DNA from: Pocillopora damicornis | Lineage: Eukaryota | Assembly: GCF_003704095.1 (NCBI RefSeq) | Contig: NW_020843670.1 | Location: forward strand, 124,001 to 188,000 | Direction: 5' to 3' | DNA length: 64,000 nucleotides | Part shown: positions 6,493-22,808 of the stretch, in pieces | How the letters are laid out: each line of letters starts with the position of its first letter | Numbering within the stretch: position 1 is the stretch's first letter | Position numbers and translations under genes: made by a program | The notes under the pieces: generated by a model | Seen by the model: the letters and a program-made list of their open reading frames with translations, nothing else | Told to the model about the DNA's origin: nothing | Database searches by the model: none

Positions 6493-9400
6493 ATGTGGAG
6501 AGCAGGGGTTGACACCAAGATGAATTTAGGTAGTGCTGGAGATGATGATGACTGGGAAACAGATCCTGACTTTGTGGTGGGTGCCGAACCGAGAGTGACT
6601 TCCTCTTCGTGTTTGAATTATTTCAATATTTAATCACTTTTATACACGACTTTCAGTTGACTATGGCAAGGTACCTTTCAACTTAAGCTTCCAGTTACAA
6701 TTTGATTCATATAAAGTGATCTATTAGTATCTTCAGCATAACGAGTCGATTTACTCTTTCAGCTCCGTAAGAGCTTAATTTTAGAATCACTAATCTCCAC
6801 AAAACAATCACTTGCTCACTTTCTGACATGTTCAGTTTCCAGGGATATTTATTTACGTCATACGAGATTAAAAGAAGAAATATTTCAGCAGATCAAATCT
6901 TTTAATGTTGTTTAATCTCGTTTATGATTGCACATATGTCCCCTTTAGATACAACAACGATTGCTTCATTAATTGGTTTAACAGAAAATCCCAAATAAAT
7001 AAACATTACTCCAGCCAAGTAGTGATGGCTTCAGGGAAGATGTCCAATTTTGTCAGGATATTTTTATTTATATCATTTCCTATTTGGTCTTTTGCAACAG
7101 ATGGTAGAATTAAGTTCTAGATGCAATGCAGGTATTAATGAACAGCTTTTAATGAAGACCTTTCATTAAGTCATGGCATGCTTGCTATCCAGAAGTAAGT
7201 TTCTTATGGCAGCATGATTTATTTTGGTAGAATGATGTTTCTGAACAAGAACAAAGATGGGGAGCCAAGACAATTGAAGGATCTGGACATCAGGAGTCTC
7301 TGAAGTAAGTATATAATAATTAATTTAATTGTGGATATACAGTGTAGTTGAAAAAGTGTGAGGCAATTCAGTTGAACCTTGATTATTCAGACTTGTGGAG
7401 AATACTGTATTCCAGATAATTAAGAGTCCTAAAAATCATAATATGAATATTAATGAGTCAAAAATAAAATTGAATGCTTGTCATTTAATCAATATTATGC
7501 AAGAATTAAAGGACATTCTCAAATCATTGTGCACCATAGTCAAAATCTGCTCAAGTATTGACATAGATAATTTACTACCTGGATTGCTGATGTAAATCAG
7601 TTTGTTTCAAGCTGCTACAGCATGTGCATGCTGCTTATTTCATCATTCTCTGAAGCTGCATCTAGGAAAAGCATAAATTTTGAATGTGATTAATTACTAT
7701 TTGTGAAAAAATTGGACCATAAGGGCAAGTCCAAATAATTGAGCTTCAACTGTATATAAGATCACTTGAGTTACTTTCTACTCATTGACTGAGTAAGGGC
7801 CAGATGTGAAAATGTTGACAGCACAACACACGGTGTTAGTAGAGTGAGGTCTATACATGATAACCAAGGTCCAAGCATGTCTATTTTAGTGTCCAGCTCT
7901 ACCTAACTAAGTAGATTAGCACAAGTCATTTTATTGCTGTTATTTCTCTTTCTTCCTTTCTTTTTGCACATCACAAGGCCTTCTATATTGCCACACTTGC
8001 CCAAGTCATCTTAAACCTTCCTCATACTGGGATTTTTTTGTGTTTCTATGAAAGCGCACTTAGAGTCATACAGGTCACATGTTAAACTGTTACTATTAAT
8101 TCAGCCAGCCAGCTGGCAAGCAAGAAGTGATCTTTATCCCCAATCTATGTTGATTGATGTAATTTTTATAGAAATACTTTGTTCAACTTGTTAGTACTTA
8201 ATATTTATACTCCTTGGATGAGAGAAGAACAGGGGGTGGAAGAGGAGAGAAAGAGAGAAGTGTCTCGCTTAATTATTCAACAAATTTTTCCAAGCCAGGG
8301 CTTAATTTTGGACCCTTAAAGTGGGGTCTTGTACACTACCAATTGGGATACCACGTTTTGTACATCCTTGGCTTAGACCAAGGGAGCAGGCATTGGATAT
8401 TTAAAAGGATGCTGGTGCTAATTTAGAAGTAAAAGTTAAACTTGGTTTCGATTGATAATGTGAAATGCAAATATTGGTACTGGCTTTTTATTTTACTGTA
8501 AGGAAAAGTAGAAGGAAATTAACTTTCAATCATAAAAATGTCTGTGAATATATGAAAGTCATATAATTATGTGAACTGCGCATAAAGACGTGCATATGAA
8601 AGTCATATAATTATGTGAACTGCGCATAAAGACGTGCATATGAAAGTTATTTTCGGGGGCAATTACAGGGTTCAGGGCATTACAGGCCTGAATTTTTTCC
8701 AGGCCTTATTTCACCACTGCCTAAGTAGTGTTCATTACTGCAAAGATTGCTTTCATATTCAATTATAAAACTGTCAATTAAAACTGCAAAACCAAACAAA
8801 ATAATTTACACTTACCTAGAGTCAGCTTAATCATGTTTCCAACAAGCTAGAAAAATATTAAAGACTAGAATAACAAATTATAAAGTATATATTAGAGTGT
8901 AATATGATCTACATGTAGGAGATGATATGGAAATGGCTTAAATGATATCAAACTGTATTTGACGTAAAACCCACGCCATTCTTGATTGGAGGTTTGGTGC
9001 ATGGAAATAAGGGTACTGGTGTCCAATTACATGTAAGGTGCATGCAGGAGCAAGCAATACTTAAAGACGTCAATGATGCTAGTTCAGTTGAGTGTAACAT
9101 AACCTGAATATAATATGCATCTACCTTCTTGTTAGTATAAAGGATCTTCGAAAAGGTGTAGCACAGGACCATGCAAAGATTAAACAAGGTGAGGAACTTG
9201 TTACTAGGTAATTGTTGTGGTGATGGTCATGTTCGCCTTGCTCTTTCAAAACCAAGTGACCTTTCCAAAGAGGATGCGTTGGCTCTAACTATACATTTTG
9301 AGGTGCAACATGTCTCACATCAGTAGAGTTCTCAGTGTTTCTGTATTGTGATTGATTAAGAGAGCTTGTCTGCAGTAAAACATCTATTTACTTGTAATGT

Positions 9401-12400
9401 TTTATTTACTAAGAGTCTTCTTAAGAGAATACCATAATCAGTAAGCTTCTCATTAAAGTCTGCCTCCATTTCTTTTTTCCTTTTACAGATGAAAGTGAGA
9501 GAGGGTATCCTTTTGATAACAGTTTTAATTCACAGATCTGTGCAAAACTGGCAATGAAACAACTGTAAGTTATACATCCATTATTAACAATAGTTTGTAC
9601 TGTACATGATTGAATAACTGAGGACAAGCAAACAAGAGGACAGCTTTGTTTATGTTTATTTTAGGGAGCTACATGTAGCAAGAGTGGGATGCAGGGGCTT
9701 AATGTTTGGTGTGCTGACCTCTGGGTCAAGAGGTCTAGTTTCAAGCCCTGGCCAGGCTATTCTGTTGTGTTCTTGGGCTAAACATTCTACATTCACAATG
9801 CTTCTCTCCACCCAGGAGTATAAATGGACACCAGCAAATTTTCAGGGAAGCCTGTTCAAATGCTGTGGGTAACCTTGTGATGCACTGGCATCCCATCTAG
9901 TGGGGAGTAATAATACTCCTAGTCGTTTCATGCTAAGGAAACTGGGATAAGTTCCTGTTGTGTTGGTTCCCAGTGTGCATGCATGACATACATGATGACA
10001 ATTAGCTCCTTTGGAAAAGTCTCAGATGTATATTCAATATCTTTGTATTACATGTATTACATTATATGTCTGTACAAGCATGATAAACGATTGGGCAGAA
10101 AATTCTTTCCTTGACTAATGGAATAGTCCTAAAGCTTCCTATGGTTATGGTGGGAAGTTTGGAGTGCAAAAAGACAGAATGGATCAGGTATGGGTCAGAA
10201 GGTTTTTGCTGTGAGAGTCATGTTTTGCTTCTTAGTATTTCTATTGAATATTGCTTTTGGTGATTTCTTGTGGTGAATTTTTCAAAGCAGTTAAAACTTT
10301 CAGCTTTATTAGTCTCATTATAATCCATGCAATTAGGAGTGTGAAGACTGTATATCTGAAAACATGCAATACATGTTCAGCAAACATTGTTTGCATGTAA
10401 AAATAATTGCACATTTAAGTACTCTTCTGTGATCCGTGTTACTTTTCCTTCTAGTTGCTAACTATGTATATCATAGATTTGAGGATATATGATAACTTAT
10501 TCTTTTTGTAGTCTGTCGTTGGATTTGACTATGAGGGGAAGGTGGAAAAGCATGTATCACAAACTGGTAAGTGTGTTTAAAGTGATATCCTCCTTGGTCA
10601 ATGGGGAGTTAAAATCCAGACTTTTGAGTCTCCATTCACATCCAACCCTCAGTTAGAATGAAGTAAGATCCATTGTAATAACCATAACTGTGTGAAATTC
10701 AGGCAACACCTTCAGGTTGCTGGTTGATACCTACCAGTAGTGGGTATCAATTTGATCTTTTGGTTCTATTAAAAGGTTTGAAAGTATAGAGGGTTTTTAT
10801 TTTCATACAGCAGTAAATTAAACTTAGTAAATTAATTTACTGCAAAATTCACATGTTTGTCACCTTCAGATAACTGTTAATTTTTAACATGACTTGCATT
10901 CATAATTAATCACATACAGCACTGTAAAGTGAATGGGCTTTTTAAAGGGTATCCAGTCAAGTCGCCGACGGTTCAACTCGCCAACGCCAACTCACTGACG
11001 TGTAAAATCGAGTAGAGACGTTGGCAAGTTGGTCTTCAATCCAGTACAACTTATTAGAAGACAGACATATAGAAAAGTGAAAGATATTTAGGGAAAAAGC
11101 AATTTTGTTTGCTTCCAACAAAGTTTTAAGGATTTCATGGGGAATAAAGCAAGGTAAACATCACCAATGAATATAAAAGCTTTAGGCACTAACGAGTTGT
11201 GTGACAATACTGTAAAGACTCATCATGTCAGTCGATCAGATTATTTTAAGAAAACTTGGCTTTCTAGACAAGATCTTTCGTAGAAAACACAATTCTTTTT
11301 ATTTCCAAAAAAGTTTATAAGGATCTCAAGGCGAAGAAAGTAAGGTAAACATCGGCAATGATCGAAAAAGCTTTAGACGCGAACAAGTTATTGTGTGACA
11401 ACCCCAACTACCAGGCGGAATGATATGTTTTTTTAACTTTAAAGAATGATTTATTCATAATCGAGAACGTTTGATTTACAATAAGATTTAATGTATTATA
11501 AAGATCAAGTGAACATGTGAAAGCTATGCATATCATGTGATTATTCTGCTCTTGAAGGTCCGTTTAATCTCGACATTGATTTCAATAATTGGGCTGCTGT
11601 CTTTTCACCATTCTCATATTTCACACAACAACTCATTCGCGTCTAAAGCTTTCTTGGTTATTGGCGATGTTCCCCTTGCTTTATTCGCCTTGAGATCCTT
11701 ATAAACTTTGTTGGAAATAAAAAGAATTGTTTTTTTACTAAAGATCATGTCTAGAGAGCCAAGTTTTTTTAAAAAAATCTGACTGATTGACATGAAGAGT
11801 CTCCACAGTGTTGTTGTCACACAATAACTCGTCTGCTTCTGAAGCTTATACATTCATTGGCGACGTTTACCTTGCTTTATTCGCCATGAGATCCTTATAA
11901 ACTTTGTTGGAAGAAAACAAAACTGTTTTTTTTTACTAATTATCTTTTACTTTTCTGTATGTTTAACTTTTAACTTTTAATAAGTTGTACTGGATTGAAG
12001 ACCAACTCGCCGACGTCTCTACTCGATTTTATACGTCGGCGAGTTGGCGTTGGCGAGTTGAACCGTCGGCAACTTGACCGTAATTCTTTTAAAGAAACCA
12101 ATTTGTTAAACATACTCATGACAACAGACACAGTTGTTAAAAAAGCAAGAAGTGTTCTTGCAGCTATAGTAATCAATGTTACACTCACAAACAAAGTTTT
12201 TCTAAAAGGGCTGAATCACTCTTGAGCAAACTCCTTTGGGAGTCCTTCCTTTCAAGGGATCACTTCTAGGATTTGTAATGGTACATGTATCTACAAAAGA
12301 ACCATGAAATTGTCTTAGTGGCTTCTATTGTTTATCTTGATAGACTATTCTACTGGATTTGGTGGCAAATATGGTGTTCAGAAGGACAGAGTTGACCAGG

Positions 12401-15400
12401 TTGATGCTTTAAGTTCATTCTTTCAGATTTGTATTTACAACAATGTAATACTATCTAGCATTATCATGTGCCTTTTTTAAAAAAGTGTACACACAAGTGC
12501 TGTACTAAGCTTTTCCAGAACTTCAATACTGTCTATGGCTGTAAGGCAGGTGTGCACTGACATTCATCCCAGTATTAATTACAGATAACTATGTTTCACT
12601 GACTGACTGACTTTAATTGTCTTTTATTAGCAAATAAATGTATTTTTAAATTTAATTTTAGTGATTTATTTTATTAATCAATATATTATAGTTACTTAAT
12701 ATATATTTTAATTTATTATTGGTTCTACATCATTTTGTACTCCCATTTTAGGCTGCTGTTGGATTTGAATATGAAGGCAAAACTGAGAAGCATGCTTCAC
12801 AACAGGGTGTGTATTCTTTAGTAAAATAAACCCTTCAGGGTGTTAGTATGTCAGCCAATAATGTCCGCAGTGAAAGATTGACTGAAAAATGAATATTTTG
12901 TATATGACATAAAGCAGCCAATAAAATTCCATAAATAGGTAGGTGATGAATAGGGATTTTAACTTTCAACAGATTGATTTGTCAGTCCAGCCTGCAATCC
13001 TATGCTTCATTGTCTGTTTCTAATAAATGATGTATTGAGGGGTGTTCACAAAGCTTACATCACATTAGGATTCATGTACCAGTATAATTCTCATCTTTGA
13101 CTGTATCACTGCTTATTTAGATTACTCTAAAGGATTTGGTGGTAAATATGGTGTTCAAAAGGACAGAGTTGACCAGGTACTTGACAGTGTTATTTTCATC
13201 TGGTAACTGTGCATGAAGTTACTGAATACTCCTTGAAGGAATGGAACAGTAGAAAGAAAGTTACTGAACAATACAAATAAACTCAGTAGATCTGCATATA
13301 ATATAGATTTCACTTCCTGGATAGATTCTAAGTTATGTAGTAAAAACAATAGAAGACCAGTCAATTTGTCTGTGAATACATGGACAGTTGTTGTGTACTG
13401 TATAATTATACACTCAGCAATTCTGGTGGTAACCTTCCCTGTGTTCTGTTCTACACTTTAAAACTCACAAAACCACAAACACTTCAACATTTTTCTTTAT
13501 TTTTATTTATTTATTTCTAACCACAAACACTTAAACATCTTTCTTTATTTCTTTACCAAGCTCAAAACTTACCATCTCTCCTATTTTCATCTATAAACAT
13601 TACGCTATCAACATTGCTGATCCTAACCGTATGCAGGATGCATGTCATATGAACTTGTTAATAGACCTCGCTCACTGCGGAGTCTGTGGCCTAGTGGTAG
13701 AGCATCGGAGTGTGGAATCTGAAGGTCTGAGGTTTCTCATGGGGATTCCTCATGGAGACTCAGAATTTTTTCTTTGTCCCATGCTTGTGAAATGACAAAA
13801 AACATCTTTCTTTACTTGAAATACATGTTGGGAACTGATCATGCTGAATATAAGGATACACAAGAAAACATTAACTTCCAAAAATTGTTTCAAAATGTAG
13901 CAGTAATTGAGATGCAACCTCTGAGTCTCTTTTATTTAAAATGAATGGTGTACTCTTCTTAATATTTCAACTTCTACTTTCTGATTAGTACTGGTTTCTC
14001 ATGTGCGTGCATTTAATTTCCTTATTAAGTTTTAAAATTAACAGCAATTTAATGTAAGTTCATATATTCTTATGAGAGTTTATTTCTTCACCCTGCTCAC
14101 ATGGCAGGCAGCAGTTGGCTATGACTATGAAGGCAAAACTGCAGCACATGTTTCCACAAAAGGTTTGTCACATCATTTTTGTTAAAAAAAATGTTTTATG
14201 TCATTAGGAGAAAGACGTTGTCTATGTTTTGCAAGGGTTTAATAATGAATGAGACAGTATAAATTTATAATTTTAAAGTTTCCTTTGTTTCATGGTTATG
14301 AACAAAATGTATTGTAAATTTTCATTTTTTCCTTCATGTAGATCACTCCAAAGGATTTGGTGGCAAGTATGGAGTCCAAAAAGACAGAGTTGATAAGGTG
14401 AGCAAAACTGCAAATGAATGTACACATACATGGCCGACAGTCTGCGACCTGTTGGCAACCTTTCGGTAACCTGGTGGTGGGTTGTAAACTGAAATGATCC
14501 TAAACATTTACCTATCGACTGCTTCTAAAACTACATGGAAAAGGGGAAAAGTCGTTTCAAAAAGATACCTTGCTTTGTACTCTCAAATTAGCTACTGCGG
14601 CTTTTGCCCACTTTTTTGCATTGGTTAGTGAAACTTTCCCAAACTGGTTCAATTTCATTTATCCACCATATTGAAAAGTTTTTCTAGTTCCCAATCCCTA
14701 AATGCACTGCCTCTGAAACCCTTTTAAGAAAGTCTTTATTTGGTTAGAACTATTTGACCTGTTAGTTCATTCACTTGCAAAATGTAGAAAAGGAGCCATT
14801 TTGTGTACATACCAGGATATAAGAAATAGGTGTTTTGGTACTTACAGTTGGGAGATGGGTTAAACAAGGTTATTTTACCATTTAAATAGAATCAAGCAGA
14901 TAGGTACAAACTATGCGATTGACATGTGTTTCTATTTACTGTTTTTGACTGGAAAAGTTTGAACTCTGTTTTCAGTTAATTTTTGGTCTACTTAACACTG
15001 TCGGCTGACTGTCGGTAATGTGTTGATATTGCATTGGTAACCTGTCAGCCAACAGTTGACCGACAGGTTACCAACAGTCGAAAATGGGAACCATTGTTCA
15101 CTATAACTGACAATAAACCATGAGAACTGTTTCCTTCTTCAGGCAGCTGTTGGTTTTGATTATGAAGGGAAAACAGAAGCACATGCTTCACAGAAAGGTA
15201 CCTCATTCTACATAGTATAATTATTTTCAACCAAACTTGAAAATATTCTACCTTGTACTGTACACTATAAATAAGAAAAAAATATTGTTTCTAGTTTTCT
15301 TGTTTTTGAAGAACTTTTTGTGCATTAATTTTGTAAAAATAAATTTCTCACCAACAGTAGATGAAGCCATATTTTAAGCCTCAATTGGTGGTGATGCCTG

Positions 15401-18400
15401 TGAGATGTCATGTTTTGTTTGGTTTTTTTTTTTTGTTATTTTTTCTCATTAGATCATTCCAAAGGGTTTGGTGGAAAGTATGGAGTCCAGAAGGACAGAG
15501 TAGACAAGGTACAGTGTTTATCAAAATTATGATAACTGTTAAGCAATTCTAAGTGCATATATGATGACTAGACAGGAATGAGGCCTTTTCCAGAAAGGCA
15601 GAGGTGTAGTTTAAAGCAATTGTTGGCTCAAAGGAGGGGAAATCTTTTTTCTCCATGGGGTTGCTTCATAAATTATAATTGATTTTATAATAATTTATTA
15701 TTAATAGTATGTCCAGCATTCTTAATAGTAAGTTAATTCAGCTTTCTTAATCTTAAGTGAATTTACAGATACTTGACACTTTGAAAATTCTATTCTATGG
15801 GGGTATTTTGTTAGTAATGGTGGGTGTGGAGGAAACTACTACAAAACATTAGTCTGTATGTACCTCTGCCCATGAATTGCCACATGTTATAGTGAACCTA
15901 CTCTGCATTGTGAGGCAGAACCCAAAATTGCAACCACCTTAAGGCTAAATAACACAATTGAAAACTTTGTGTAATGCAAACAGGGTATTTAAGGTTTACC
16001 TAATCTTTGGACACCAGCTGCAGCAGTTGATGTAAACTATATAAAAATGAATGTTCTAATTAAAGAATAAGAATTTTGAACTTAAAAAAGGAGTTTTTAC
16101 CTTTTAGAGAATCTAGTTTTGAGAAAAAAAATGGATACTAAGATATCCAGAAGCATATATAGTCATGAGTATGTTCATGGGTTTATTGGACACCTGGGTG
16201 CATATCAGCAAGTTTGGTTCACCATCCACTACTTTGAAAGTCAAGAGCCAGGAGCCAAGCAAGCAGAACACCAGATTCATACCAGATCAGAGAGGAGTTG
16301 AGCATCGTCAGTTTGTGTTTCATTGACTATCCATTTCAAAATCAAGTGAAACAAGCATGTCCTATTAAAATGGGGTGATAATATGGAAGCAAGTTTTTAA
16401 ACTTTGAAGAAGCTGAAGGAATTTTTAAGCCAAATTCTGTTGGGAGACAAGTCAATCCTTGACAAGTTTGAAACTTTGTCTGCATCTTGTGTAAGTGAAA
16501 CAGAGCAATTTCTGTTTACAAATGTCAATATTTGTCTGGTGGTGTTGAAGTTTGAGCCAGTGGCCAACAGATAGAGAGATAAAAGTTTGGAGGAAGGGCA
16601 GGCAGTTGCTGAAACTCTTAGTAATGTTGAGGCAGTCAGGTTTGCTGTTTTTTTTTAGGTCAGTAATTGGTTTGTAGAGGAATGTTTTTAGCCTCTGACA
16701 GTGCTGTACATGTACAGTACATGTTTGCTCCATGGAAGTCAACTTTGAAGTGAAAAGGAACTTCCATGAGCATCTAACTAAAATGAATGCTGCCAGGAAA
16801 GAGAGGAATGAGATCCTTTTTGAATTAAGGAATTAAAAGGAATGGGTTGTGATATGCAGCATGTTCCATTGTATACTCAGTATTTCTAGTAAGAATACTG
16901 TTGCATCTAGGCTTGATTTCCATCGCTCTTTTGTGTATGGTATCTGTTCCTTCCTGAGGGTTCAAGGGTAGGAGGGTAGGCTCATATTCCTGAACAGTGG
17001 CTGGTAATCGAGCCTATGTTGTGTCCATAACCTTGGAGGAAACTCAGCAATAGATAAGCCAGCCCAATGAAATGGAATTTAGAGTAGTTAGAAGCCATGT
17101 AGTATGGTTGATTTAAAGTGCAAATGACATCATTTAGTCAACTGTATGTTGATGACACTCACTGTGGTTAAGCAGTTGAAATACTGATAGTGTGTTGTAG
17201 TAGACCTCATTCAAAGACAATCATTTCAGATTCTTCTACATCAAGGACATAGCAATCCCCCCTCTCTCTCTGTTTTCATCAACATGATATTATTAATAAG
17301 AGGTTATCTAAAACCATGTCTTTGTTGAGAAGAGCAAAGTGCAATATACAGTGATGGATGAAATTGCCAAGTGACTCTATCATACCCAGTGACCTAAAAT
17401 TATGGCTATAGTTAGCAATTAACAATGTTTGTCCTGGAAAAAGTATATTCACCATGTTACATTTACATGTGAATGGCAGTGAACTACAAAATAGGAAGGA
17501 GTTGACTTTGAAACAACAATAAAGTAGTGTGGAGGGCATACATTTAACATAAAGAGATGAACCACGAAGCAAGTTGCACAGGGACAAGACCAAGAGTTGT
17601 ACAGGGCAACCTGAAGAAAAAGTTACCTTAAAGTTATTTTAAATCTACATCGTAATTCTTAATCAACCAGATACATTGCACGTTTCATCCAGCTTTAACC
17701 TAACCTGCTGTTTGCATCAAGTTTTGTTATACTTAGAGAACAACAACCAATAAAAGATAAAATAAAATATCACAAGTTCACCATCTACTCAAAAAAACAA
17801 ATAATTTCTGTTGCATTTCCTTAAAATATTGAAAAATGGAATAATGATACCATAGATAGATAAATAGGAAAACAGACTTAGAAATAGGTTGTTACACTTT
17901 AGTTAGTTAGACAAACATACTTAGGTACATGTTGGTATATAACTAAGTACTTTAAATTTAGAGTTTTATTGATATAAAATTTGTTTTATCCCCAAACAGC
18001 CTGAAGCTGAATGAACCAGCTGGAGGAGCAAGGAACAGCCTCTGAGTTTTTTCTCTTCACACCTTCCAATCAAATCATATTTTCTTTTAGTTTTTAGATG
18101 TGATTGTAACTTGTACAGGAATTGATATTGCCTATTAAAACTGATTTAACAAAATGACTTCATGAAGTGGAAGTTCATTCTAATTGTCATTGTGTTTGTA
18201 ATCTTTTGATTGTCACGAAATCAAATGTAGCTTGATAAAAAAGGAAAACATGTTTCTAAAAGTGTTTTTGTTTCCATTTAATTATAAGTGATTTAATTTA
18301 TATTTTAACTGGCAATTGCCTTGATCATGTTAAAATTGCGCCCATTTTTCTTGTGTTTCTAATTGTTTAGCTTTGAGAAAGTAAGTGGTATAAAATTTTG

Positions 18401-21400
18401 TATGGCTTCATACCAACTTTTGCAACAAGACGAAAAAGGACTCTTAAATATCTTGATTTAGTCTTTGTGAGACGACATATGCATCATTTTCCCTAGCATT
18501 CCCTAACAATATTCTAAGCCTTCATTGGTATAGTAAGATTGTCAAAAAATCAAGAGCACAAATTTGATAATTTTAGACATTGCCTTATTGTCTGATTTAA
18601 CACTGTTAAAACTAATGTAGAATGGTCACTTGATAAACCTAATGAATATGGTGTAATTGAAGATATTTTTTCTTCTCAAATGATCTGACACCTGTGTCCC
18701 TATGACTCAGATAACTTCTGTTTATTTAGTACTTTTAGATTTGAGTTCTTCATGGACTTTTAGGTGCTATTTGAAACTTAAGCATGATGCAAAAAATTAA
18801 TATAACATTTTTTATGATGACAATTTTTTGTTCTTTTAATCTCTCCTCAGGCAGCTGTTGGCTTTGAATACCAAGGAAAGACAGAAGAACATGCTTCACA
18901 AAAAGGTGTGTTTTAATTTTTTTTAAAATCTCACCTTTAAGGGCTTTCACCTTATCAAAGGTATTTTCTCTTGACAGAGGTGAATTCTTCTTTGTTGCAA
19001 AACAATTCTCAACATACACATGTACACATGTACCTTTAAAAATGGCTCTTAATCAGTGATGCAACTTTGATGGCAATTTGTGACTAGCTTGTAGGAAGCA
19101 GTGTGTCTAATCACTATTTTTTTTTTTTTCAGATCATTCAAAAGGCTTTGGAGGAAAATATGGAGTACAAACAGACAGAGTTGACAAGGTCAATTTACTA
19201 AACATTTTTCTTTTAGAATGAAAATCCACTTTAATTTACACCAGATTTAGTACCTTACATGTTTATTTTATTTCCTCAGTCTGCTATGGGCTTTGAATAC
19301 CAAGGCAAAACTGAGGAACATGCCTCTCAGAAAGGTTAGTCATAGTCTTGCTTCTGCCTTTATGAGGCATTACGTACATGTAGAAGTGTTTTCAAGTCAA
19401 GAATAAATAGAGCAATTTTCAATAAAGTATCTTCGCTCTTCGCTCTGTGATCAGTCTAGAAACCCCATGCTACTCTCTTAACCAATCAGATGTAAAACTA
19501 AAACCAATCACGACTTGGTCGGCCGCACTTTCCCACGCTTTAGGTTGTTTGGTTGTTCTTACTTTGAGCTCGCATTGCCTCTTAAAGATATTTTACTCTC
19601 TTCTGACTGGCCATTGTGATTACTTTGAGTATGGTTTTACGACACTCTGTCATAAAGTGCTCTAATAAGCAAATCATATGAGCAGACTATTTAGGTCGAA
19701 GTTCGGCACAACAACTACGTGTTGCTTAATAACCCCTTGACACTCAAGATCTAAATATTTACTTCCCATCTTGTCTGCCATGCATGTCGTGTTACTCTAG
19801 ACCTGAGAATTTGGTGTGAAATTAAATGTTGTTCCCAGTGGTTATTTTAGTACTCTTCGTCACCTTTCTGCTTGAAAATCTACCGATTGTTTGGAGGAAT
19901 TACTTTTAGTCACCCCGGGGATTGAAAAGGTGAATGCATTTGTACCTTAGTGCCGCTACACGTGAAGTTCTCCCCCATGGGTCACCTGAGACTTTGTCTT
20001 TACACTAACTAAAACAATCCTCCCTGGTATTAAAACTTCTTTAGATGGTCACCTCTTTGCAACAGCTTTGTATTTGTATGCCCACAAGTGGTGAACGAAG
20101 GGAAGTTTAACTACTTTGTTTTCCATGAACACAGCTAATTTCCCTTCCACTGTACTTCAGATCACTCTAAAGGTTTCGGTGGTAAATTTGGTGTCCAGAC
20201 TGATAGACAAGATGCAGTAAGTGTGATCAATGAATACTGATACGTTCGTTTTCCTTGAATATTTCCAACATCCTAGCTCAGCTTTACTGTTTGAAACTGT
20301 CTCGCTCCATCCCTAAACACAGAAGTTAGTTTGAAGTTTTTCAGAGGAGTAACGCGATCTTACAGATAAGCAAAACTTTTTGCAAGTGACCTGTGCTAAT
20401 TTATATCTTTACTCTTCAGTCTGCTGGAGGTTTTGATGAAATGCAAGAAGTAAAATCAACTTACCAGACAGCAAAACCACGTGCAGGTTGATTCTGTTTA
20501 CAAGGCTTTGTCTTAGAAACTTTAAACTAGCTAAGCATACTTTGATTTTCAAAAATACGATCAATTCAGGTGTGTGAACTTTAACTCCCTACTCAAGTCC
20601 AAAATAATTCACCCAGGTTTAGTGGCACCCACTTGTCCACAGAGTAAAGCCCCTGACAAGGTCCCCTTACATTATGGGAAATACATTAGCCATATAAGAA
20701 CCGCCCCTCTTCTTTTTGGGGAATGGAGACATGAACTAAAAACACGAAGAATTTTTGCTGTATCGTTGTTTATCCAAACATTTATTTATTTTTTTTTTTT
20801 GGGGGGGGGAGGGGAAGGGAACAGCCATGGCAAAAAATATGTTTTAGTGGTTTTTACTCTTCCCCCTTTCAAGAATAATCATGGCGATGGTTGACTCTTA
20901 AAGCTTTCAGATTATCCAATTTTATTTCTTTGTGAAAGCCAAAGCCAGAGAGAATTCTTCCGTCCTACTGAAAAAGTATTCGTTCAAATAAACTCCATCC
21001 TGTTCAGAAAATATATGAATGGGGAAAACCGCAATCGCGATAAAGCTGGAGCAGAAAAGATATGACCACTGTCCCAATTATGGGCCCGTTTGTTTTTTTT
21101 GTTTGTTTTTGTTTCGATATATGATTCAATATTTGCATTCGACAGGGTCTGGAGCAGCAGGCAACTTGAAATCAAAGTTTGAGAACTTAGCCCGAGAGCA
21201 AGAGGAGGTCTGTTGACGATAACCGTACTAAAGAACTGTTACGTTTTTTTGTCATTTTGAGTTCCTTTGAATTATTTTCCGTTTCCTCAAAATGCCAATA
21301 ATTTTTCTATTACAGGAAAACAAGAGACGAGCAGAAGAAGAGAGAGCTCGGCGACAGGCGAGAGAACAAAGAGAGAAAGAGATCAACGAAAAAAGGCATG

Positions 21401-22808
21401 CAGAGGTAATCAACCAAGCTTTATTTCGACTTTGGGTACATGTGGCAAAGTGGCTAACTATATGAGTCTGACTTTAGATCTGATCGTAGATTTGAAAACC
21501 AACAAAGGGCGAATGTAATCGTAGTCCTCCATTAGGATTCTACAGTAACTCCTCGGAGGTTGTGGCATGTAGCTACCAACTGTGCTAAAGAGAACTGGCC
21601 GTCGAGCAATGCTCTCATGCGGCGAGTGTACAATATTATGATTCGTGTTACATGTATGTTGTCATTTTCAGCAAGAGGCACGCGACAAAGAGGAGGCTGA
21701 GGAAGAAGCCCGTCGTCAGGCAGAGGAGGAAGCCCGTCGTCAGGCAGAGGAGGAAGCCCGTCGTCAGGCGGAGGAGGAAGCCCAACGTCAGGCCGAGGAA
21801 GAAGCTTGGCGAGAGGAAGAAGCGGCCAGGCAACAACAAGAAGCTGAAGCACAGCAAGAGTATGAAGAAACCGAAGCTGAAGCGACCTATGAAGAGACAG
21901 GGGAACCAAGATATGAATCAGAACCTACAGATTTCTACGAAGAAGTTACCCAAGAACAGCAAACAACACAGGGAGAGGTACAAGGAAACATAGATACCAC
22001 AGCTAAAAGTATAGTTTACCCCTACAGTTTGCACTGTTCAGCCAAAGGTGGCTCAATGGAAGAGGAATTGATCACATAGTTGGTGCAAATTTCGGAAAAG
22101 CGCAAAGTTACGAGAACCTGTAGTTTGATAATACCCGAGTGAATGCGGCCGTAAAAGGGACTATTGTTAGTTGCGAGTGTTTTCAGTACTATTACCACCC
22201 AGCCGGTTACAATTAAGGAGTGACAGAACTCGCGTTGTTCCCACATCCACTATTAGCGTAATATTTCTTTTTGTACTCGTTGAAGGTTAGCGAAGGAGGC
22301 GAAGGAAAGAATGCGACAGCTCTGTACGATTATCAAGCAAGTAAGTTTTTCTATCTGAGATATTATTACTTTTTCTCGCCACACAAGGGAGCACTTTGCC
22401 AAGCTCTGAAATGCACAATTCCTAAATCTCAGTGAAATGTTCACCTTTTTCGGCAACTTGTGCAAAGCGAAATTTGAAGCTAATTAGAATTTGGCATGAA
22501 TAGCATTTAAAGTTAGTAGCTGAACTCTTGGTCGTTTAAATGGTTACCTTAGTGCAGTGCTCTTCTGTTCAATGTCTTTCTCCTCACTAAGCTGTCTGCA
22601 ACTTACAAGATTTTCCATTCTGCAAACCGTCTGGACTTAAGACACCGCCATTAACTCCCACAATTCATTTCTAGCTGCTGAGGATGAGATATCATTTGAC
22701 CCTGGTGACGTCATCACTGACATTGAGGAAGTGGATGAAGGATGGTGGATGGGAACATGTAACGGAAGTCGGGGACTGTTTCCGTCCAATTATGTAGAAA
22801 TGAATTAA
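6493..22808 (+). CDS. CTTN: Cortactin (Src substrate; cortactin/HS1 family), ~555 aa; exons 6493-6576, 7231-7304, 9136-9188, 9489-9504, 10127-10187, 10512-10566, 12344-12399, 12752-12806, 13121-13176, 14108-14162, 14342-14397, 15143-15197, 15453-15508, 18851-18905, 19133-19188, 19280-19334, 20161-20216, 20420-20486, 21146-21207, 21316-21405, 21672-21977, 22286-22340, 22675-22808
   Basis: N-terminal acidic domain MWRAG...[31 protein letters not shown] with the DDW Arp2/3-binding motif; about 6.5 37-aa repeats ([36 protein letters not shown]); helical [10 protein letters not shown]...[14 protein letters not shown]; C-terminal SH3 [53 protein letters not shown]. All exon phases are compatible; total 1668 nt. 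Confidence 0.96.
8548..8762. repeat. Fragment of a tRNA-related dispersed repeat with an exact 44-bp internal tandem duplication
   Basis: TATGAAAGTCATATAATTATGTGAACTGCGCATAAAGACGTGCA twice (8551, 8595); the caggcctgaatttttt..agtagtgttcattactgc..agattgctttcatattc segment matches the 26475-26930 element. Confidence 0.7.
9505..10126 (+). other. U12-type (minor spliceosome) GT-AG intron in cortactin
   Basis: Donor GTATCCTTT (consensus RTATCCTTT); branch site TTCCTTGAC at 10107-10115 (consensus TTCCTTRAC) with the A 12 nt before the terminal G; no polypyrimidine tract (TAATGGAATAG); phase 2; splicing restores [12 protein letters not shown]. Confidence 0.88.
9684..9960 (+). mobile_element. tRNA-derived SINE-like element inside the U12 intron
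   Basis: tRNA-like head (B-box-like GTTTCAAGCCC) followed by TTGTGTTCTTGGGCTAAACATTCTAC...CTCTCCACCCAGGAGTATAAATGG, a central block typical of invertebrate SINE cores. Family assignment is from recall. Confidence 0.6.
10948..12086. mobile_element. Non-autonomous foldback DNA transposon, ~1.14 kb, ~450-bp TIRs, 8(-9)-bp TSD
   Basis: Left arm GTCAAGTCGCCGACGGTTCAACTCGCCAACGCCAACTC...CAATCCAGTACAACTTATTA is the reverse complement of the right arm (to 12086); similarity runs over about 10948-11400 vs 11620-12086; TTTTAAAG on both sides (10940-10947, 12087-12094). Long TIRs with an 8-9-bp TSD fit Mutator-like or foldback elements. Confidence 0.85.
13470..13813 (+). repeat. Dispersed repeat with tRNA-like segment and direct terminal repeat (AAACATCTTTCTTTA)
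   Basis: A-box-like TGGCCTAGTGGTAGAGCA at about 13687, degenerate B-box (gattcct); AAACATCTTTCTTTA at both about 13533 and 13800; 5' end locally duplicated (AACCACAAACACTT twice). Confidence 0.55.
14428..15110. repeat. Decayed element with CCGACAG/CTGTCGG/GGTAACC subterminal motifs
   Basis: Clusters of short GC-rich motifs (ccgacagt, ggtaacctg, ctgtcgg, ccaacagt) at both ends of this cortactin intron, typical of MITE subterminal repeats. Ends not defined. Confidence 0.4.
16150..16850 (-). mobile_element. Highly decayed non-LTR retrotransposon (CR1/L2-like RT C-terminus) fragment
   Basis: Minus-strand frames give LPWSKHV..., [36 protein letters not shown] and [17 protein letters not shown], in the order of LINE RT tail motifs (LSWxxH, KAxxxLxxxxRxF, PxxxxxIxxLE, LxxRRxxxDLxxxYK). 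Many stops and frameshifts. Confidence 0.4.
19408..19664. mobile_element. Small MITE with TAGAGC...GCTCTA ends
   Basis: TAGAGCAATTTTCAAT... and ...GACACTCTGTCATAAAGTGCTCTA; a related left end TAGAGCGCTTTTCGATTGAGTG occurs at about 4740. Confidence 0.5.
19730..19934. mobile_element. Third decayed copy of the CCC...GGG ~200-bp MITE
   Basis: taaCCCCTTGACACTCAAGATC...TGAGAATTTGGT...GGGATTGAAAAGGtgaa shares CTCAAGATC and TGAGAATTTGGT with 313-510. Confidence 0.5.
21696..21812 (+). repeat. Coding 24-nt tandem repeat (AEEEARRQ)x4.9 in cortactin
   Basis: GCAGAGGAGGAAGCCCGTCGTCAG-type units at 21696, 21720, 21744, 21768 and a partial unit at 21792. Confidence 0.92.

What the first reader, a model, noticed from the sequence alone, without database searches (positions are those of the whole stretch)
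9489..10126. U12-type intron directly after a 16-nt micro-exon in cortactin
Seen in sequence: the frame between exon 9136-9188 (ends phase 1) and exon 10127-10187 (starts phase 2) is restored only by the 16-nt exon ATGAAAGTGAGAGAGG (D-E-S-E-R-G). Its upstream intron is ordinary U2 type with a long T tract; its downstream intron has GTATCCTTT, a TTCCTTGAC branch site 12 nt from the end and no pyrimidine tract. Established: these are the U11/U12 signatures, and minor introns are rare and often rate-limiting. Inference: major and minor spliceosomes must assemble 16 nt apart, and skipping or retention would frameshift before the actin-binding repeats, giving a possible expression switch. I do not recall a minor intron described for cortactin; automated annotation would probably miss the exon.
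Basis: partly seen in the sequence, partly recalled or inferred. Interest (0 to 1): 0.7.

Follow-up and report, generated by a model that had tools for sequence, protein, structure and literature searches.

The report
Coral cortactin's minor intron after micro-exon
In a coral's cortactin gene a 16-base exon is followed by an intron that carries the signals of the rare minor spliceosome; RNA shows the tiny exon is used, other coral-like genes keep the arrangement while a mollusc-like and a fish-like gene lack it, and it is likely an ordinary, slowly removed minor intron rather than a regulated switch.

Summary
Exon 9489-9504 restores the frame and exact spacing to solved cortactin, and its letters join the flanking exons in RNA contigs of 4 of 5 runs laid. 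Intron 9505-10126 has a U12 donor, a branch site pairing with the genome's own U12, and no pyrimidine tract; it is the only such intron of 22. U11, U12, U6atac and a borderline U4atac are in the genome. Of 14 orthologous loci, 10 (two independent lineages) keep the branch site at the same distance, 9 of them with the 16-nt exon; a mollusc-like and a fish-like gene have one uninterrupted exon. Intron-retaining contigs seem to have the upstream major intron already removed, so splicing is likely sequential, not simultaneous. No skipping was seen and regulation is unshown, so the 'switch' is unsupported. Minor introns are common in corals; whether this one was gained in corals or lost in bilaterians is open. 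No paper or earlier scan note on it was found. New member of a known kind.

The parts
6493..22808 (+). Cortactin coding region, 23 exons, 555 aa (acidic DDW N-terminus, HS1/cortactin repeats, helical region, SH3)
   Evidence: Open frame from exons picked by coordinates; Pfam HS1_rep; PDB cortactin 8tah_H, 8p94_I; GT..AG joints listed in RNA contigs up to 13120; later exons are frame-based only
9136..9188 (+). Coding exon 3, 53 nt, ends in phase 1
   Evidence: Joint 7304-9136 in 4 of 4 RNA runs
9189..9488 (+). Upstream major (U2-type) intron, 300 nt, long pyrimidine tract
   Evidence: Donor GTGAGG, 93% pyrimidines at -17..-3; skipped in RNA contigs that run from exon 3 into the micro-exon letters
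9489..9504 (+). 16-nt micro-exon (D-E-S-E-R-G), frame-shifting if skipped
   Evidence: Letters between joint sides in X15 and loose ends in X16, X17, X20; 16-nt exon at the same place in 9 orthologous loci
9505..10126 (+). GT-AG U12-type intron, 622 nt, phase 2
   Evidence: Spliced out in RNA contigs and also spanned whole by retained-intron contigs; motif tests
9505..9514 (+). U12 5' splice site
   Evidence: Positions +4..+10 pair with the genome's U11 5' end (6 Watson-Crick, 1 G-U); +6 and +7 cannot pair with its CC-variant U6atac
9565..9571 (+). In-frame cryptic U2-type donor (GTAAGTT) inside the minor intron; would add 20 aa
   Evidence: no GTRAG in the first 200 nt of the 9 orthologous introns; no joint listed
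10106..10116 (+). U12 branch site, predicted branch A at 10114
   Evidence: 10 pairs (9 Watson-Crick, 1 G-U) with U12 nt 17-26 when A10114 is bulged; same motif at the same distance in 10 orthologous loci
10127..10187 (+). Coding exon 5, 61 nt (PKASYGYGG...), start of the repeat domain
   Evidence: Matches 8p94_I residues 78-97; joint 10185-10510 in RNA

Best explanation
Intron 9505-10126 is a spliced GT-AG intron with U12-type donor and branch signals that follows a used 16-nt exon in coral cortactin; it is likely removed by the minor spliceosome after the upstream major intron has gone, likely as the slower step, with the micro-exon likely included constitutively. Inferred mechanism: the strong pyrimidine tract lets the major spliceosome remove the 300-nt upstream intron (possibly helped by U11/U12 sitting on the donor 16 nt away); the 53+16-nt spliced exon then looks like an ordinary exon and the minor spliceosome removes the second intron. 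A small pool that still holds the intron has a stop after 96 codons and would be degraded. Any effect on cortactin level would be the generic rate-limiting effect of minor introns, not a dedicated switch.
For: Shown: frame and motifs; exact D31-to-P78 spacing with 8p94_I and the modal 34-residue spacing of 185 of 246 measurable homologues among 341 fetched; micro-exon letters joining both neighbours in 4 of 5 RNA runs from 3 studies; U12, U11, U6atac over Rfam cut-off and U4atac at 52.2 vs 53 bits; pairing registers; branch motif and 11-nt spacing kept in 10 of 14 loci while intron bodies between lineages do not align (best local score 21-26 vs 190 within a lineage). Inferred order: contigs that run from the micro-exon into the minor intron in X16, X17 and X20 begin with 12 letters that do not match genomic intron 3; 12+2+16 = 30 equals the overlap of 31-letter unitigs and the 30-letter start of the spliced contig. 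Established: minor introns are slower and more often retained, and U11-59K bridges to U2AF across exons (PMC8329584, PMC8034651, passages).
Against: No PWM/intronIC score and no knockdown: use of the minor spliceosome is inferred from sequence. The 12 unmatched letters were not printed and fall short of the tool's 31-letter bridging rule, so the order is a geometric inference. X15's retained contig starts inside the micro-exon (uninformative) and X19 laid nothing on this intron. In two orthologous part-spliced contigs (L013, L019) both introns beside the micro-exon are still present while a downstream intron is gone, which fits a joint bottleneck rather than a strict order; L019 also keeps a later intron and such contigs may be mosaics. 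Four of 9 orthologous donors read GTATCTTT, one step from consensus. Free-energy duplex scores did not single out this intron.
Confidence: 0.78

Rival explanations
1. Regulated switch: minor-spliceosome activity controls retention or skipping at this cassette and so tunes cortactin with tissue, stage or stress, perhaps also yielding a short Arp2/3-binding N-terminal peptide.
For: Retained-intron contigs exist in 4 of 5 RNA runs; both outcomes truncate the protein; the architecture is kept in three lineages; L013 and L019 keep both flanking introns.
Against: No skipped joint listed in any of 5 RNA runs (one search showed all 5 joints for X16, X20, X19 and the DNA-like X12; one search hid 26); contigs give no levels or conditions; conservation is expected of any minor intron.
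Confidence: 0.15
2. The intron is, or is becoming, a major-spliceosome intron (minor-like or hybrid), or is spliced by both machines.
For: GT-AG ends; C+6>T in 4 of 9 orthologous donors; an in-frame U2-type donor at 9565.
Against: No pyrimidine tract; perfect branch site at a fixed distance in all 10 orthologues; the +6 change still pairs with U11 as G-U; the cryptic donor is absent from the orthologues and has no listed joint.
Confidence: 0.06
3. The exon path is different or the micro-exon is an artefact of the assembly or of reading.
For: 146 other frame-restoring candidates exist in principle.
Against: RNA contigs carry exactly these 16 letters; a DNA-like run matches 9060-10600 in two contigs with 0 and 1 differences.
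Confidence: 0.01

Closest known systems
[quoted passage not shown]
   Same: Donor, branch site and spacing, no pyrimidine tract, non-zero phase, single minor intron among major ones, retained form seen in RNA.
Major-minor exon bridging (U11-59K/PDCD7 with U2AF; PMC8034651 and PMC8329584, passages)
   Same: A major 3' splice site faces a minor 5' splice site across one exon.
   Different: The exon is 16 nt; none of the passages read treats so short an exon, and the evidence here points to sequential removal.
Vertebrate cortactin/HS1 gene structure (PMC554100, section 5 and passages; supplements unreadable)
   Same: Same protein and, in L012 and L020, the same two outer intron positions and phases around this segment.
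   Different: Human exons are 55-178 nt apart from the last, so no 16-nt exon; L012 (130 nt) and L020 (124 nt) have one exon where the coral has 53+16+61 = 130 nt.
Neural micro-exons of bilaterians (PMC13149111, passages)
   Same: Very short, charged residues, conserved length.
   Different: Not a multiple of three, encodes a core segment present in nearly all homologues, no skipping seen, downstream intron is U12-type.
CC-variant U6atac of cnidarians, Trichoplax, a sponge and others (PMC2396436, section 16)
   Same: This genome's only U6atac match has GCCGA in place of AAGGA and cannot pair donor +6/+7.
   Different: Nothing different; this intron is one concrete substrate, with orthologues varying at +6.

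Membership tests
U12-type intron | 5' splice site RTATCCTTT | tested here: met
   Exact at 9505-9513, only match in the window; only 1 of 22 donors in the gene
U12-type intron | Branch site TTCCTTRAY close to the 3' end, complementary to U12 | tested here: met
   0 mismatches vs 2-4 for the best site in the other 21 introns; 10 pairs with own U12, A10114 bulged
U12-type intron | No polypyrimidine tract | tested here: met
   47% pyrimidines at -17..-3 vs 60-93%
U12-type intron | Is excised at these boundaries | tested here: met
   Junction letters in 4 of 5 RNA runs
U12-type intron | Organism encodes U11, U12, U4atac, U6atac | tested here: met
   92.7, 100 and 104.6 bits over cut-off; U4atac 52.2 vs cut-off 53, E 4.7e-6, and predicted to pair with U6atac
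U12-type intron | Signals conserved at the orthologous position | tested here: met
   10 of 14 loci, two independent lineages
U12-type intron | PWM/intronIC classification | not testable with these tools
   No such tool or training set; consensus matching used instead
U12-type intron | Splicing depends on the minor spliceosome | not testable with these tools
   Needs knockdown or lariat mapping
U12-type intron | Retained more than neighbouring major introns | tested here: inconclusive
   Retained contigs present in 4 of 5 runs, but contig depth cannot rank parts of a gene
Regulated (neural-type) micro-exon | Length of about 3-27 nt | tested here: met
   16 nt
Regulated (neural-type) micro-exon | Frame-preserving length | tested here: not met
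   16 nt; skipping shifts the frame
Regulated (neural-type) micro-exon | Alternatively included | tested here: inconclusive
   No skipped joint listed; contigs drop rare forms
Competing U2/U12 donors (twintron-like; family recalled and from PMC8329584 passages) | Conserved, used major splice site inside the minor intron | tested here: not met
   Donor at 9565 absent from 9 of 9 orthologous introns; no joint
USSE (U11-binding enhancer without splicing; PMC8329584 passages) | Minor donor motif that is not used as a splice site | tested here: not met
   The donor is the exon boundary in RNA and has a matching branch site
Cortactin/HS1 | Acidic DDW region, HS1 repeats, C-terminal SH3 | tested here: met
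   single locus in the genome, 7 of 7 matches within this gene

The most novel reading that the evidence does not exclude
Both introns were gained in the cnidarian or coral line, cutting an ancestral 130-nt exon into 53+16+61 nt: a datable de novo minor-intron gain that created a micro-exon bridged by U11/U12 and U2AF across only 16 nt, placed cortactin under minor-spliceosome control, and is read by a U6atac that cannot pair donor positions +6/+7, which is why +6 drifts among corals.
Probability: 0.15. Interest if true: 0.7.

Novelty: new member of a known kind. Interest (0 to 1): 0.4.

Why it matters
It adds cortactin to the genes with a minor intron in corals and gives an unusually compact natural case, a major acceptor and a minor donor 16 nt apart, for asking whether the two spliceosomes bridge so short an exon or act in turn. 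It is also a small, well-bounded case for two open questions: whether minor introns are gained singly in animals, and how the CC-variant U6atac of early-branching animals recognises its donors. As it stands it does not show new chemistry or regulation.

Tried and rejected
Duplex free energies with the genome's U11 and U12 did not discriminate: another donor scored -12.1 vs -10.1 here, and four other 3' ends scored -9.5 to -11.4 vs -9.4; dropped in favour of motif and register tests. Contig depth as retention level: intron vs spliced contigs give about 2.3% (X15), 2.3% (X16), 15.5% (X17) and 4.4-6.1% (X20); the minor-intron contig is deeper than most other listed intronic pieces in X16, X17 and X20 but mid-range in X15 and absent in X19. 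The tool states that such depths cannot rank parts of a gene, so they are not used as evidence. Likewise the lack of cover over 9216-9475 in three RNA runs, where the DNA-like run X12 is covered, is only a hint. A recurring micro-exon+U12 architecture in this genome: 37 pattern matches vs 38 in the control; of 30 fetched, only the cortactin site has a branch site within 1450 nt downstream (1 of 60 control halves had one); the pattern was narrow. The other four TTCCTTRAC matches in the window were inspected and not tied to a U12 donor. The idea that the odd U6atac is a pseudogene or new: single match by family, pattern and DNA search and already described as the CC variant. Outgroups outside Bilateria: pattern scans of genome contigs and viral contigs found 0; a protein scan gave 2 irrelevant bacterial loci because the query was a fused model. 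No protein with this coral segment was found among the 341 fetched, so the annotation question stayed open. The exon tables of PMC554100 are .doc files that could not be read, so the human exon length at this segment was not seen.

Full report
Sequence check. The gene is cortactin: the downstream exon hits Pfam HS1_rep, and the two flanking segments match solved cortactin at residues 31-52 and 78-97; counting through the micro-exon puts the proline of PKAS at exactly 78. The spacing from the GSG motif to the first GYGG motif is 34 residues, the modal value in 185 of 246 homologues that could be measured among 341 fetched. A 23-exon model gives 555 aa, and the gene is single in the genome.

Intron class. 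Among the gene's 22 introns only 9505-10126 has the U12 donor, a zero-mismatch branch motif (others 2-4 mismatches) and a weak pyrimidine tract (47% against 60-93%). Neither motif alone is rare in 64 kb, and the acceptor-gap-donor pattern is at chance in the genome; the joint placement at both ends of one intron has a composition-based chance near 3e-8. The genome holds U12, U11 and U6atac above Rfam cut-offs and a U4atac just under it. Donor +4..+10 pairs with this U11, and the branch region pairs with U12 nt 17-26 with A10114 bulged. Duplex energies were not discriminating. That the minor spliceosome does the work is inferred, not shown.

RNA. Six RNA runs held the stretch, three labelled coral metagenome with larger or small shares and two marine metagenome among them; five were laid. 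X15 shows a joint across 9192-10126 with the micro-exon's remaining letters between; X16, X17 and X20 show the same letters as loose ends; X19 laid nothing on these exons. No joint that skips the micro-exon was listed, but hid 26 joints and contigs drop rare forms. Contigs also run along the minor intron in X15, X16, X17 and X20. In X16, X17 and X20 such a contig starts with 12 letters that do not match genomic intron 3, so it is not genomic DNA; 12 letters plus the shared AG plus the 16-nt exon make 30, the same 30 letters with which the spliced contig begins. I infer that these molecules had lost the upstream major intron while still holding the minor one. The 12 letters were not printed and the overlap is below the tool's 31-letter bridging rule. 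Depth ratios suggest a few percent retention but cannot be trusted as levels. Retention stops the frame after 96 aa, skipping after 236 aa.

Other animals. One scan with a pattern from the downstream exon, blind to intron type, gave 14 loci. Ten have an intron at the same phase-2 position with TTCCTTAAT 11 nt before the end, the same distance as here; nine show a 16-nt exon before a GTATC donor, and L011 is too short upstream. These ten are not independent: eight share an identical 60-nt exon and two another, so with the window there are three lineages, differing at 4-10 of 60 exon positions, nearly all third codon positions where compared with the window. Between lineages the intron bodies do not align while the branch motif and AG stay fixed. 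Five donors read GTATCCTTT and four GTATCTTTT. Their taxa were not determined; I call them coral-like from similarity. Two genomic loci have a single exon over the same segment with the same outer boundaries: L012 (130 nt, best hit an oyster cortactin, 77%) and L020 (124 nt, closest to a teleost HS1-like protein). L014 and L021 are intron-free and uninformative. Human cortactin has no exon under 55 nt (PMC554100, section 5). Against a strict order, L013 and L019 are part-spliced contigs that keep both introns beside the micro-exon.

Gain or loss. With no outgroup outside Bilateria the direction is open. Loss in bilaterians is the simpler reading: the coral also splits every repeat into 55+56-nt exons where human has five 111-nt exons and L020 has an unsplit first repeat, and large minor-intron gain is described as extremely rare (PMC10639083, passages), though occasional gain by conversion from major introns is reported (PMC11347168, passages).

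The U6atac variant. The genome's single U6atac has GCCGA where the Rfam consensus has AAGGA. This is the CC variant reported for cnidarians and others and left unexplained (PMC2396436, section 16); a search for the term found only that paper. With it, donor +6 and +7 are unpaired, and the C+6>T seen in four orthologues still pairs with U11 as G-U. With two lineages this is a lead only.

Literature. Searches for cortactin or CTTN with minor or U12-type intron gave two papers each, seen as listings only and not about this intron by their titles. Searches for micro-exons or short exons beside U12 introns gave reviews; the passages read in PMC8329584, PMC8034651 and PMC13149111 describe slow minor splicing, cross-exon bridging and neural micro-exons, not this arrangement. 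The supplements held for PMC11347168 and PMC10639083 do not name cortactin, but the latter's species list includes stony corals, so intron-level catalogues that I could not open may hold this intron. The scan's earlier notes hold nothing on it.

Verdict. A real, used micro-exon followed by a well-supported U12-type intron, conserved in three coral-like lineages and absent from the bilaterian genes seen. The steric and switch arguments are not borne out: order appears sequential and regulation is unshown. New member of a known kind, interest 0.4; worth more if outgroups show a gain.

Noticed in passing
L004:1501-1625 (-), G000:C1986: The only U6atac found is the CC variant (GCCGA), unable to pair minor donor +6/+7; known from PMC2396436 but unexplained. 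Four of 9 orthologous donors of this intron vary at +6.
   Followed up: partly
window 10512-20216: Each cortactin repeat is split into alternating 55- and 56-nt exons, whereas human has five 111-nt exons (PMC554100) and L020 an unsplit first repeat; the coral gene may keep an older intron-rich layout.
   Followed up: partly
window 9565-9571: In-frame U2-type donor inside the minor intron, not conserved; X20 contigs break at 9546 and 9565, cause unresolved (allele, error bubble or cryptic use).
   Followed up: partly
window 10127-14397: The shifted frame produced by skipping the micro-exon stays open to residue 236, across several repeat exons; likely a by-product of repeat codon patterns.
   Followed up: no
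L009:784 and the same site in L015: A perfect GTATCCTTT lies inside the intron between coding exons 2 and 3, not at a known exon end, while the used donor there is GTATCTTTT; chance or decoy.
   Followed up: no
L013 and L019: Part-spliced contigs that keep both introns beside the micro-exon while a neighbouring intron is gone; possible intermediates or assembly mosaics.
   Followed up: partly
window 8540-8760, 9790-9950 and 10950-12100: Intronic stretches that draw many contigs from elsewhere and give opposite-strand joints: dispersed repeats, the last apparently with inverted arms.
   Followed up: no
L002 (G000:C280:116032-116196): A second, weak U12-like match (41.4 bits, under cut-off), possibly a decayed copy.
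   Followed up: no
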